This document shows positions 36,660-40,013 of a stretch of 64,000 bases of DNA, one piece after another. The translations under genes and the position numbers were made by a program. The notes under the pieces are model-generated. The model was given only the letters and a program-made list of their open reading frames with translations. It had not been told where the DNA came from and did no database searches. The stretch lies in assembly GCF_056712565.1 (NCBI RefSeq), contig NZ_CM160072.1, one strand, 5' to 3'. The number at the start of each line of letters is the position of its first letter. Positions within the stretch are counted from its first letter, which is position 1.

Positions 36660-39600
36660 ATGCATACTCAGCGTTACGGTTTCTGGGGATATTTAATTCT
36701 GATTATTGGTTTGGCAGGGATTTGCGCTCTGTTAATTATTATTAATCAGGATGTTCTGATAAAGAGCGGAGTGTCTGCTCGTCTGATATGGGGAATATGG
36801 GCGGGATTATTTTCTCTTTTTTTACTTGGGGTTGTGTGTTCGCCGTTCTGGTGGATCCGGAAGCAAAGGAAAGCGCAATTTATTTACAGACCAAAAAATT
36901 CGGCAGAAAACGACCAACCCGTATCTTCTCCATCAGAGGATATTTTAACCGATCTCAGCTCAAATATTCGGTTACGCTATGGTCCGTTCTGGCGGCGTAA
37001 AGTCCGCCTGCTGCTGGTGACCGGCGAGCCTGAAGAGGCAGAGGCCATCGCGCCGGGGCTGACCGGGCAACACTGGCTGGAGGGCGACCACACCGTGCTG
37101 ATATATGGCGGCAGGCCAACAGCGGAGCCTGATGTCACACTGCTGACCGCCTTAAAAAAACTGCGCCGCAGCCGTCCGCTGGACGGCATCATCTGGCCGC
37201 TGACAGAAGAACAAAGCCGCCAGACCGCACAACTCGACAAAGGCTGGCGCGAACTGATAAACGGCGGTAAGCGACTCGGTTTTCAGGCTCCACTCTATTT
37301 GTGGCAGGTCTGTGACGACGGTGATTATCAGACCGGACGCCCCCTGCAAAGCGTCGGCTGCCTGCTGCCGGAACGCTGTACCCCGGAACAACTGGCTGTA
37401 ATGCTGGAAGCACAAACCCTGCCGCTGACGGAACAGGGCATGTCGCAACTGCTGGCGGATAACCGCCATGATTTCCTGCTGCGTCTGGCCCATACCCTTG
37501 CAGAGCGGGGTATCGCTCACTGGCAAAGCGTTCTGAAACCGCTGCTGGCAGGCGGCGCATTTTCTTCCCTGCGCCTGCGTGGCCTGATGTTCAGCCCGCC
37601 GCTTGCCGCCGTGCCGGAGGCCGCACCTCATGCGTGGCTGCCGTCACCGGTCTGGGCGGGCGTGACGGGTGATAACGCGCGCGGGCGCACGGTGGGTTTT
37701 CCGTGGCTGCGTACCGCACTGATGTCCGCTGTCTGCGTGCTGGTGATATGGGGGGCCGGAATGACGACCTCGTTCTTCGCCAACCGCGCTCTTGTTCAGG
37801 AAACCGGTATCCAGACGGCGCGTGCGCTCGATACCCGCCTGCCGCTGGCAGAACAACTGGTGGCGCTGCATACCCTGCAGGGCGAACTGGAACGCCTGCA
37901 ATACCGTATCCGCGAAGGTGCGCCGTGGTATCAGCGTTTTGGCCTTGAACGTAACCAACAACTGCTCGCCGCCGCTTTTCCCGGCTATGCGCAGGCGGCA
38001 AACCGGCTGGTGCGCGACGTGGCCGTTGACCATCTGCAACAGCAACTTAATGCCTTTGTCGCGCTGCCGCCCAACAGTCCTCAGCGTACCGCCACCGGTG
38101 AACAACGCTATAAGCAGCTTAAGGCATTGCTGATGACTTCCCGCCCGGAAAAGGCCGACGCTGCCTTTTTCAGTACCACGCTGATGGCGGACGGTCTGCG
38201 CTACGAGAATATCCCGGAAGGTGTGCGGCAGAGCGTGTTGCCGTCACTGCTGACCTTCTGGACGGCGAACCTGCCGGAACACCCGCAGTGGAAAACATCG
38301 CCGCCACCGGAACTGACCGGCGCAGTGCGTAAAATCCTGCTGCGCCAGATTGGTGTGCGTAATGCCGAAAACACCCTCTACCAGAACGTGCTGCAACAGG
38401 TGTCCCGCAACTACGCCGATATGACGCTGGCGGACATGACCGGGGATACCCTCACCGAATCTCTTTTCAGTACGGAACAGACGGTGCCGGGGATGTTCAC
38501 CCGTCAGGCGTGGGAAGGACAGGTCAGGGAAGCCATCGAGCAGGTGGTGACGGCGCGGCGCGAGGAAATCGACTGGGTACTCAGCGACCGCCAGCAGGAT
38601 ACCTCTGCGGATATCTCGCCGGATACGCTGCGTAACCGTCTCACCTCACGCTACTTTACCGACTTTGCCGGAAGCTGGCTGGCGTTTCTCAACAGCATTC
38701 GCTGGAAAAAGGAAGACTCGCTCTCCGGCATTCTCGACCAGCTGACACTGATGGCCGATGCCCGTCAGTCGCCACTGATTGCGCTGACGGACACCCTCGC
38801 GTGGCAGGCGGCGGCAGGCAGGGAAAACCGTGGCCTGTCAGACTCGCTGGCGAAATCGGCACAGGAACTGTTTAACGGCAAGGAGAAAACGCCGCAGCAA
38901 TCCCGTGAAGGCAACGAGCCTGTCGGGCCGCTGGATAAAACCTTCGCGCCGCTACTGCGGTTGCTGGGCGATAAGGCAGGAGGCGGTGGTGGTGATACGC
39001 AACTCAGCCTGCAAACGTATCTGACCCGCGTCACCCGCGTGCGTCTCAAACTGCAACAGGTGACCAACGCCCCCGACCCGCAGGAGATGACCCAGCAACT
39101 GGCGCAGACGGTTTTACAGGGCAAAACCGTTGACCTCACCGACACCCGCGACTACGGACGGTTAATCGCCGCCAGTCTGGGCGAGGAATGGAGTGGCTTC
39201 GGTCAGGCGCTGTTCGTCCGCCCGGTGGAGCAGTCGTGGCGGCAGGTGCTGACGCCTGCGGCGGACAGCCTGAACCGTCAGTGGCAGCGGGCGATAGTCA
39301 GCCACTGGAATCAGGACTTCGCCGGGCGCTATCCGTTCAAAGCCTCACAAAACGATGCCTCTCTTCCCCTGCTGGCACAGTATCTGCGCGATGACGGGCG
39401 CATCAACCAGTTTATCGCCGCCAACCTTTCCGGTGTTCTGAAACGTGAAGGCCGCTACTGGGTGGCTGACGCCATGAACACGCAGGGGCTGACGGTTAAC
39501 CCGGACTTTATCCGCGCCCTGAACCGCCTGCGTGACGTGGCCGACACCGCCTTTGCCAGCGGCGATGCGGGAATACATTTCGAACTGCGGGCAAAACCGG

Positions 39601-40013
39601 CGCGTGACGTGATGAAAACGCATCTGGTGATTGACGGGCAGGAGCTGGAATATTTCAACCAGAAGGAACGCTGGCAGCGTTTCAACTGGCCGGATGAACA
39701 GTGGCAACCCGGCGCATCGCTGAGCTGGACCAGCACGCAGGCGATGGAACGCATTCTGGCGGATTACCGGGGAAGCTGGAGCCTTATTCGCCTGCTGGAA
39801 CAGGCGCAGGTGACACCGGTGGACAGCAGCACCTTTAAGGTGGTGTGGAAAGCGCAGGATGGCCTGCCGCTGAATTACCTGCTGCGGGTTGAACAGGGTA
39901 AAGGGCCGCTGGCGCTGCTGGAGCTGAAAAACTTCCGCCTGCCGGGACAGGTATTTCTGACCGGCAGGAGTATGAAGGATGCGGAAGAGTATGGGGAAGA
40001 CGCCGATGAGTGA
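36660..40013 (+). CDS. tssM: T6SS membrane-complex protein TssM (IcmF family), no canonical Walker A
   Basis: 1117 aa; TM1/TM2 at the N-terminus, cytoplasmic loop, TM3 around residue 360, large periplasmic IcmF-like C-terminal domain; no GxxxxGK[ST] anywhere in the translation. Confidence 0.85.
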   Translation: MHTQRYGFWGYLILIIGLAGICALLIIINQDVLIKSGVSARLIWGIWAGLFSLFLLGVVCSPFWWIRKQRKAQFIYRPKNSAENDQPVSSPSEDILTDLSSNIRLRYGPFWRRKVRLLLVTGEPEEAEAIAPGLTGQHWLEGDHTVLIYGGRPTAEPDVTLLTALKKLRRSRPLDGIIWPLTEEQSRQTAQLDKGWRELINGGKRLGFQAPLYLWQVCDDGDYQTGRPLQSVGCLLPERCTPEQLAVMLEAQTLPLTEQGMSQLLADNRHDFLLRLAHTLAERGIAHWQSVLKPLLAGGAFSSLRLRGLMFSPPLAAVPEAAPHAWLPSPVWAGVTGDNARGRTVGFPWLRTALMSAVCVLVIWGAGMTTSFFANRALVQETGIQTARALDTRLPLAEQLVALHTLQGELERLQYRIREGAPWYQRFGLERNQQLLAAAFPGYAQAANRLVRDVAVDHLQQQLNAFVALPPNSPQRTATGEQRYKQLKALLMTSRPEKADAAFFSTTLMADGLRYENIPEGVRQSVLPSLLTFWTANLPEHPQWKTSPPPELTGAVRKILLRQIGVRNAENTLYQNVLQQVSRNYADMTLADMTGDTLTESLFSTEQTVPGMFTRQAWEGQVREAIEQVVTARREEIDWVLSDRQQDTSADISPDTLRNRLTSRYFTDFAGSWLAFLNSIRWKKEDSLSGILDQLTLMADARQSPLIALTDTLAWQAAAGRENRGLSDSLAKSAQELFNGKEKTPQQSREGNEPVGPLDKTFAPLLRLLGDKAGGGGGDTQLSLQTYLTRVTRVRLKLQQVTNAPDPQEMTQQLAQTVLQGKTVDLTDTRDYGRLIAASLGEEWSGFGQALFVRPVEQSWRQVLTPAADSLNRQWQRAIVSHWNQDFAGRYPFKASQNDASLPLLAQYLRDDGRINQFIAANLSGVLKREGRYWVADAMNTQGLTVNPDFIRALNRLRDVADTAFASGDAGIHFELRAKPARDVMKTHLVIDGQELEYFNQKERWQRFNWPDEQWQPGASLSWTSTQAMERILADYRGSWSLIRLLEQAQVTPVDSSTFKVVWKAQDGLPLNYLLRVEQGKGPLALLELKNFRLPGQVFLTGRSMKDAEEYGEDADE

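What the first reader, a model, noticed from the sequence alone, without database searches (positions are those of the whole stretch)
36660..40013. TssM with no Walker A (P-loop) motif
TssM usually carries a GxxGxGK[ST] NTP-binding motif in the cytoplasmic loop between TM2 and TM3. No such motif occurs anywhere in this 1117-aa translation; the region where one would expect it reads LLLVTGEPEEAEAIAPGL. The system may be NTPase-independent at TssM.
Basis: partly seen in the sequence, partly recalled or inferred. Interest (0 to 1): 0.45.

Follow-up and report, generated by a model that had tools for sequence, protein, structure and literature searches.

The report
TssM with a dead GTPase domain
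This E. coli type VI secretion membrane protein does lack the nucleotide-binding motif, but so does its whole enterobacterial clade, including the best-studied working E. coli system, so the finding is correct but ordinary.

Summary
Window 36660..40013 (+) encodes a 1117-aa TssM with no Walker A motif anywhere.

- **Not a quirk of this strain.** None of the 120 closest homologues across Enterobacterales has the motif. The EAEC Sci-1-type TssM, whose structure is solved (PDB 6HS7/6IXH), lacks it too.
- **All three GTPase motifs are gone.** Canonical TssMs carry G1 (GxxxxGK[ST]), G3 (DTAG) and G4 (TKxD). All are lost here, and the P-loop lysine position holds a conserved glutamate.
- **The system works.** The identical gene sits in APEC TW-XM/ExPEC XM, whose T6SS1 has published Hcp1-dependent antibacterial activity.

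The domain is best read as a pseudo-GTPase docking platform, so TssM here is very probably nucleotide-independent. This is already known in outline.

A more interesting side observation: TssM residues 1-100 (the transmembrane hairpin) and the upstream gene, a membrane-anchored protein with a Tla3-like adaptor fold, are swapped together as part of the low-GC effector cassette.

The parts
36660..40013 (+). tssM (1117 aa), the inner-membrane subunit of the T6SS membrane complex. PGAP names it 'ImcF-related family protein'.
   Evidence: ORF. Pfam IcmF-related, IcmF_helical and IcmF_C. E 1e-282 to EAEC TssM, PDB 6HS7/6IXH. 100% identical DNA in UTI89, ExPEC XM and others.
36660..36959 (+). Variable, low-GC N-terminal module: residues 1-100, comprising TM1 (about 10-28), TM2 (about 42-60) and a linker.
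   Evidence: GC is 0.41-0.43 here against 0.60+ from nt 36960. There is no significant similarity to E. coli alleles that are 94-99% identical downstream, yet 48% identity to Serratia aquatilis TssM. The discordance holds across 114 homologues.
36975..37694 (+). Cytoplasmic pseudo-GTPase domain plus helical extension (residues 106-345).
37005..37061 (+). Degenerate P-loop (G1): RLLLVTGEPEEAEAIAPGL, residues 116-134. The clade motif is G122-[ED]-x4-E128-x3-P132-G-L134, with E128 at the position of the Walker A lysine.
   Evidence: hhalign column mapping. Column frequencies: G122 36/36, E128 26 E plus 3 D of 36, P132 35/36. In the model, strand 116-121 is followed by helix 124-130.
37095..37112 (+). 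Degenerate G3/Walker B region: VLIYGG (residues 146-151), where canonical TssM has ILLDTAG. The Asp is replaced by Tyr or Trp.
37290..37319 (+). Degenerate G4 region: PLYLWQVCDD (residues 211-220), where canonical TssM has PVYVMFTKAD, a [NT]KxD motif.
   Evidence: Faint Pfam PF14331 match across residues 161-213 (E 0.07).
37704..37775 (+). TM3 (residues about 349-372).
   Evidence: Hydropathy. AF2 helix 349-392.
37776..40010 (+). Periplasmic domain (residues 373-1117), which forms the channel with TssJ.
   Evidence: Pfam. NCBIfam TIGR03348 matches only residues 349-1095. PDB 4Y7M and 4Y7L match the C-terminal part.
35514..36650 (+). Upstream gene 'X' (378 aa from the PGAP start). It has two N-terminal TM helices and a cytoplasmic domain with a thiolase/ketosynthase-like fold resembling the T6SS adaptor Tla3. 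It has no Walker A.
35252..35512 (+). PAAR-domain gene that opens the PAAR-X-tssM run.
   Evidence: PGAP annotation of the identical locus in ExPEC XM.
26802..29447 (+). tssH/clpV, the only gene in the cluster with Walker A motifs (GEPGVGKT at residue 243, GPSGTGKT at residue 617).

Best explanation
The gene is the TssM of the ExPEC/APEC T6SS1 (subclass i2) island next to the tRNA-Met genes. Its cytoplasmic loop descends from the GTPase-like NTPase domain of canonical TssMs. It has lost every nucleotide-binding motif: G1/Walker A, G3/Walker B Asp and G4 [NT]KxD. The P-loop lysine position is now a conserved glutamate. The Ras-like alpha/beta fold is retained (shown).

The domain therefore works as a nucleotide-independent scaffold, a pseudo-GTPase. 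By analogy with EAEC, it docks the TssL cytoplasmic domain and the baseplate proteins TssK and TssG onto the membrane complex (inferred). In this system ATP is used only by ClpV, for sheath recycling (inferred from motif content). The loss is ancestral to a whole clade, mostly enterobacterial, that includes the EAEC Sci-1 model machine.
For: - **Motif absence.** None in the protein. None in 120 homologues down to 47% identity from E. coli, Salmonella, Klebsiella, Enterobacter, Pantoea, Photorhabdus, Yersinia and Serratia, none of which has Pfam PF14331. None in an EAEC-type 1129-aa TssM that contains the PDB 6HS7 string.
- **Homology of the site.** hhalign gives 96% probability and E 4e-9. GEPEEAE aligns to GNPAAGK, YGG to DTAG, and the TKAD motif is absent. 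The replacement residues are conserved.
- **Canonical comparators carry the motifs.** Ralstonia has GNPAAGKS and TKAD, Rhizobium GPPATGKT and TKAD, Salinivibrio GLENAGKT and TKLD, and an E. coli TssM from a vasI/tssA/hcp cluster beside ykfM/yafT has GPAGSGKT.
- **Selective constraint.** dN/dS is 0.11-0.17 in the domain, against 0.04 in the periplasmic part.
- **Function.** The tssM DNA is 100% identical in ExPEC XM. In that strain (APEC TW-XM) T6SS1 delivers Tle4 in an Hcp1-dependent way (PMC5874247). The TssM cytoplasmic loop in EAEC binds TssG, TssK and TssL (PMC6730261), and was modelled on NTPases (PMC6517824 citing Logger 2016).
- **No other NTPase.** Only ClpV has Walker A motifs in the cluster.
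Against: - Nucleotide binding was not measured; its absence is inferred from sequence.
- The binding partners come from work on the EAEC protein, whose cytoplasmic domain is only about 37% identical to this one.
- The original papers on EAEC TssM cytoplasmic-domain modelling (Logger 2016) and the Walker A survey (Ma 2009) could not be read.
Confidence: 0.82

Rival explanations
1. The domain still binds or hydrolyses a nucleotide through a non-canonical site, a cryptic P-loop. TssM would then remain an energising NTPase as in Agrobacterium tumefaciens.
For: The GTPase-like fold is retained. G122 is invariant. A. tumefaciens TssM needs its ATPase activity for Hcp secretion (PMC3346141).
Against: The Lys position is a conserved Glu, and the flanking residues are also acidic (E123, E125, E126). 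The G3 Asp and the G4 [NT]KxD are both absent. Acidic side chains in place of Lys and Ser/Thr should repel phosphate and leave no Mg2+ ligand.
Confidence: 0.07
2. The NTPase function has moved to another protein of the cluster and acts in trans on TssM. The conserved upstream membrane protein X is the obvious candidate.
For: X is conserved immediately upstream of Walker-less tssM genes. Its reading frame overlaps tssM by 4 nt in Serratia and 8 nt in the EAEC-type cluster, though not in this window, and it is membrane-anchored like TssM.
Against: None of 120 X homologues has a Walker A motif. X has a thiolase/ketosynthase or Tla3-like fold, not an NTPase fold. Only ClpV carries Walker A motifs in the cluster.
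Confidence: 0.05
3. The motif loss is decay: this T6SS, or at least this tssM, is on its way to being non-functional.
For: In some records the otherwise 100%-identical tssM is interrupted by an IS3-family element (hits H1-H5). A preprint reports ISEc12 fragmentation of tssM in ST131 (bioRxiv 10.1101/2025.01.23.634537).
Against: The ORF here is intact. The same degenerate motif is conserved across genera. dN/dS is well below 1. All core genes are present. The identical and orthologous systems have published activity (PDB 6HS7 system).
Confidence: 0.03

Closest known systems
EAEC Sci-1 TssM (PDB 6HS7, 6IXH; C-terminal fragments 4Y7L/4Y7M/4Y7O)
   Same: It has the same architecture and length (1129 against 1117 aa) and aligns over residues 88-1105 with E 1e-282. 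An EAEC-type copy in strain STEC307 has the same degenerate P-loop pattern (G-x4-h-E-x3-P-G-L) and no Walker A anywhere. The local gene order PAAR-X-tssM-tssA is also the same.
   Different: It is only about 37% identical in the cytoplasmic domain and 52% in the periplasmic part. The N-terminal hairpin is unrelated, and X is only 21% identical.
Agrobacterium tumefaciens TssM (ImpL), an active ATPase
   Same: It is an IcmF-family T6SS inner-membrane protein with three TM segments and a cytoplasmic NTPase-fold domain between TM2 and TM3 (PMC3346141).
   Different: It has functional Walker A and B motifs that are required for Hcp secretion. A related Rhizobium TssM fetched here has GPPATGKT and TKAD. 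The window protein has none of these.
Edwardsiella tarda EvpO
   Same: It is a TssM for which NTP binding appears dispensable: Walker A substitutions did not change secretion (PMC9972734; PMC3346141).
   Different: EvpO still carries the motif. Here the motif has been lost by evolution.
E. coli TssM from a second kind of T6SS cluster (with vasI, tssA and hcp, beside ykfM/yafT), probably subclass i1
   Same: It is from the same species and has the same role in a T6SS.
   Different: It carries a canonical GPAGSGKT and is named tssM by PGAP. The window protein scores 263 bits, below the TIGR03348 cut-off of 388, because its N-terminal 348 residues do not match.
Pseudo-GTPases in general (GTPase folds that have lost the G motifs and act as scaffolds)
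   Same: The Ras-like fold is retained while G1, G3 and G4 are lost, and the domain is under purifying selection.
   Different: This is a functional analogy only. Lack of nucleotide binding was not measured here.

Membership tests
TssM / IcmF family (T6SS inner-membrane subunit) | Periplasmic IcmF-related, helical and C2-like C-terminal domains | tested here: met
   PF06761 E 2e-47, PF21070 E 9e-43, PF06744 E 1e-22.
TssM / IcmF family (T6SS inner-membrane subunit) | TM hairpin, a cytoplasmic loop of about 280 aa, then a third TM segment | tested here: met
   Hydropathy peaks at 10-28, 42-60 and 350-372. AF2 helices at 2-28, 40-75 and 349-392.
TssM / IcmF family (T6SS inner-membrane subunit) | Encoded in a T6SS cluster with tssL, tssJ and the other core genes | tested here: met
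   tssB, C, K, L, tagL, hcp, tssH, vgrG, tssM, tssA, tssF, G, J and E are all present.
TssM / IcmF family (T6SS inner-membrane subunit) | Passes the NCBIfam equivalog model TIGR03348 (cut-off 388 bits) | tested here: not met
   It scores 263 bits, and only residues 349-1095 match profile positions 429-1167. The failure comes from the diverged N-terminal part, not from absence of TssM identity. Homology to a solved TssM is E 1e-282.
Catalytically active TssM NTPase (A. tumefaciens type) / P-loop NTPase | Walker A / G1 motif GxxxxGK[ST] | tested here: not met
   There is no match in the protein. The homologous site reads GEPEEAEA.
Catalytically active TssM NTPase (A. tumefaciens type) / P-loop NTPase | Walker B / G3 aspartate (DxxG) | tested here: not met
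   Canonical ILLDTAG aligns to VLIY-GG. The clade has W or Y at this column.
Catalytically active TssM NTPase (A. tumefaciens type) / P-loop NTPase | G4 [NT]KxD motif, present in three of the four canonical TssMs fetched | tested here: not met
   PVYVMFTKAD aligns to PLYLWQV, and the column is variable in the clade.
Catalytically active TssM NTPase (A. tumefaciens type) / P-loop NTPase | P-loop NTPase / GTPase alpha-beta fold | tested here: met
   [not shown]
Catalytically active TssM NTPase (A. tumefaciens type) / P-loop NTPase | Nucleotide binding and hydrolysis | not testable with these tools
   This needs biochemistry on the purified domain.
Tla3 / DUF2875 T6SS adaptor family (for the upstream gene X) | Sequence match to Pfam DUF2875 | tested here: not met
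   No Pfam hit even at E up to 10.
Tla3 / DUF2875 T6SS adaptor family (for the upstream gene X) | Fold similarity to Tla3, and location next to PAAR, tle and tli genes | tested here: met
   [not shown]
Tla3 / DUF2875 T6SS adaptor family (for the upstream gene X) | Binds its cognate effector and a VgrG or PAAR | not testable with these tools
   This needs pull-down or two-hybrid experiments.

The most novel reading that the evidence does not exclude
The TssM transmembrane hairpin (residues 1-100) may not be a passive anchor. It could be a specificity module that travels with the effector cassette and pairs in the membrane with the co-inherited, membrane-anchored Tla3-like adaptor X. The membrane complex itself would then take part in choosing or loading cargo. 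In the same reading, the acidic ex-P-loop (G-E-x4-E-x3-PGL) of the pseudo-GTPase is a conserved docking surface rather than a relic.
Probability: 0.2. Interest if true: 0.55.

Novelty: already known. Interest (0 to 1): 0.2.

Why it matters
The finding bears on an old disagreement over whether TssM energises type VI secretion. The ATPase is required in Agrobacterium and dispensable in Edwardsiella. A whole clade has replaced the P-loop lysine with glutamate and still builds working machines, including the EAEC system on which most structural models rest. That shows NTP turnover at TssM is not a general requirement of the T6SS mechanism.

This conclusion is already implicit in the literature, so the practical value is modest. 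It explains why PGAP labels these genes 'ImcF-related family protein' rather than tssM. It also gives a defined set of residues (G122, E123, E128, P132, L134) for mutagenesis.

The side observation could matter more for understanding how effector cassettes are exchanged and matched to the machine: the TssM hairpin and a Tla3-like membrane protein move together.

Tried and rejected
- **Cryptic P-loop.** Relaxed regexes ([AG]xxxxGK[ST], GK[ST], G....G[KR][ST]) found only QGKT at residue 821 in the periplasmic domain and a GDNARGRT stretch at residue 337 next to TM3. Neither lies at the homologous site, so both were rejected.
- **Single-sequence searches for the NTPase domain.** Pfam gave only a faint PF14331 hit (E 0.07). 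phmmer against 1.84 billion representatives returned only the degenerate clade, 248 hits. Canonical TssMs had to be fetched through tblastn of the periplasmic domain against plasmids and linked by profile-profile alignment.
- **Apparent Walker A strings in five representative-library hits.** Four (P0170 at 73, P0173 at 70, P0224 at 57, P0257 at 701) lie outside the aligned P-loop position. P0249 at 313 also lies far from it. All were treated as chance.
- **Initial cluster assignment.** I first took this for the 'T6SS-2' cluster. I corrected it to T6SS1 / subclass i2 after the PDB match to EAEC Sci-1 TssM and the literature.
- **Papers not held.** Logger et al. 2016 (JMB) and Ma et al. 2009 (J Bacteriol) could not be read. 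Most 'Walker' hits in EAEC papers were only reference-list titles.
- **X as a replacement NTPase.** Rejected.
- **Not attempted.** A global census of what fraction of all TssMs lack Walker A, because the remaining large-database scans list only nearest relatives.
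Full report
**What is there.** The window carries a complete type VI secretion island flanked by core E. 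coli genes. The order in the identical ExPEC XM locus is mltA and three tRNA-Met genes, then tssB, tssC, tssK, tssL, an OmpA-family tagL, hcp, tssH/clpV, vgrG, a lipase with Tli4-family immunity genes, PAAR, a hypothetical gene, the gene in question, tssA, a second PAAR effector region, tssF, tssG, tssJ, tssE and a VasL-domain gene. The ORF at 36660..40013 (+) is intact and 1117 aa long. It has the three Pfam domains of the TssM/IcmF periplasmic part. The DNA is 100% identical in UTI89, ExPEC XM, APEC E19019 and others. At least 80% of the gene is present in 913 of 5426 complete E. coli genomes.

**Checking the observation.** No Walker A pattern of any usual stringency occurs in the protein. 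The only GK[ST] is QGKT at residue 821, in the periplasm. Hydropathy and an AlphaFold model place TM1 at about 10-28, TM2 at about 42-60 and TM3 at about 349-372.

NCBIfam's TssM equivalog model matches only residues 349-1095 and scores 263 bits against a cut-off of 388. This is why PGAP calls the gene 'ImcF-related family protein'.

**Is it the real P-loop site?** I fetched four TssMs annotated as tssM by their records. Each has a Walker A 113-133 residues from its N-terminus:
- Ralstonia: GNPAAGKS
- Rhizobium: GPPATGKT
- Salinivibrio: GLENAGKT
- an E. coli TssM from a vasI/tssA/hcp cluster beside ykfM/yafT: GPAGSGKT

Three of them also have a [NT]KxD motif about 130 residues later.

A profile of 36 members of the window's clade aligns to these four with 96% probability (E 4.4e-9, 214 columns). 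Three correspondences follow:
- VRLLLVTGEPEEAE lies on LPWYIVIGNPAAGKS.
- VLIY-GG lies on ILLDTAG.
- PLYLWQV lies on PVYVMFTKAD.

Canonical TssM N-domains have GTPase-type G1, G3 and G4 motifs, and all three are lost here. The loss is not random decay. In the clade G122 is invariant, position 123 is Glu or Asp in 28 of 36, position 128 (the lysine column) is Glu in 26 and Asp in 3 of 36, P132 is present in 35 of 36 and L134 in 34 of 36.

**How widespread.** None of the 120 closest database homologues has a Walker A or the Pfam IcmF-related_N domain. They range from 47 to 100% identity and come from E. coli, Shigella, Salmonella, Klebsiella, Enterobacter, Pantoea, Photorhabdus, Pectobacterium, Yersinia, Rahnella, Raoultella and Serratia.

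An exhaustive phmmer search of the cytoplasmic domain against 1.84 billion representatives finds only 248 relatives. All 31 full-length ones are degenerate at this site. A Paraburkholderia copy reads WLLVTGDAPTVRRLLPEV.

Most importantly, the solved EAEC Sci-1 TssM (PDB 6HS7, 6IXH) aligns over residues 88-1105 with E 1e-282 and reads RILLITGTASEVELLTPGL at the site. An E. coli genome copy containing that exact string has no Walker A anywhere in its 1129 residues.

**Function.** ExPEC XM carries the identical tssM. Work on that strain (APEC TW-XM) reports that T6SS1 (hcp1-clpV1-vgrG1, Tle4/Tli4) is Fur-regulated and delivers Tle4 in an Hcp1-dependent manner (PMC5874247). The gene content described there matches this island.

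The EAEC orthologue is the machine on which the TssJLM structures were solved. Its TssM cytoplasmic loop is reported to contact TssG, TssK and the TssL cytoplasmic domain (PMC6730261), and it was modelled on NTPases plus DPY-30 (PMC6517824).

In A. tumefaciens the Walker motifs are needed for Hcp secretion, whereas in E. tarda Walker A substitutions had no effect (PMC3346141). [quoted passage not shown] In this cluster only ClpV has Walker A motifs.

**Conclusion on the finding.** The observation and the interpretation are right, but they describe a property of a large clade that includes the model system. The cytoplasmic domain is best described as a pseudo-GTPase that serves as a docking platform. 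Nucleotide independence is inferred from sequence and from the function of orthologues; it was not measured.

**Beyond the finding.** Most E. coli alleles match this tssM only from nucleotide 316 onward.
- Two other alleles are 94-99% identical from residue 106 to the end but show no significant similarity in residues 1-100. Serratia aquatilis TssM is 45-56% identical downstream yet 48% identical (E 2e-28) in residues 1-100.
- Across the homologue set, only 2 of the 20 proteins that are at least 75% identical downstream match the N-terminus. Of the 94 proteins about 50% identical downstream, 82 match it.
- GC content steps from 0.41 to 0.60+ at nt 36960, inside the gene.

The TssM hairpin is therefore compositionally and genealogically part of the low-GC cargo region.

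The gene immediately upstream (35514..36650, 'X') is a two-TM protein with no family assignment. It is conserved in the order PAAR-X-tssM in Serratia and in the EAEC-type cluster, where its end overlaps the tssM start. It is replaced by very distant relatives (about 21% identity) in alleles that have a different hairpin.

Physical linkage alone could explain the co-inheritance. A specific pairing between X and the hairpin in the membrane is a hypothesis, not a result.

Noticed in passing
window 36660-36959 (tssM codons 1-100) compared with 36960 onward; loci L007, L008, L009, L011: The 5' end of tssM, encoding the TM1-TM2 hairpin and linker, is mosaic. Its GC content is 0.41 against 0.60 downstream. 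It is unrelated between E. coli alleles that are 94-99% identical downstream, yet 48% identical to Serratia aquatilis TssM. The breakpoint sits at the start of the pseudo-GTPase domain (LRxRYGPFWRR).
   Followed up: partly
[not shown]
   Followed up: partly
E. coli genomes NZ_CP025401.1, NZ_CP021288.1, NZ_CP069996.1, NZ_CP069935.1 and NZ_CP126937.1 (hits H1-H5): In these strains the otherwise 100%-identical tssM is split by an IS3-family transposase. This agrees with the ISEc12 fragmentation of tssM reported for ST131 (bioRxiv 10.1101/2025.01.23.634537). The window's copy is intact.
   Followed up: partly
window 31911-35512 and 41616-44528: Two low-GC (0.30-0.43) cargo regions sit inside the high-GC core cluster. 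The first holds a lipase with Tli4-family immunity genes and a PAAR gene. The second holds a 527-aa PAAR-domain protein followed by small hypothetical ORFs. The effector and immunity assignments were not examined.
   Followed up: no
locus L004 (Rhizobium indigoferae plasmid), 6820-7863: A 'beta-ketoacyl synthase N-terminal-like domain-containing protein' lies between DUF2169 and DUF4150 (PAAR-like) genes, downstream of tssM-tagF. This is another ketosynthase-fold protein in a T6SS cargo context, reminiscent of X and Tla3.
   Followed up: no
protein P0002: This 1367-aa database protein is 100% identical to the window TssM over 97% of the query and also carries a PF12486 domain. It is probably a gene-call fusion with a neighbouring gene. 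It was not checked.
   Followed up: no
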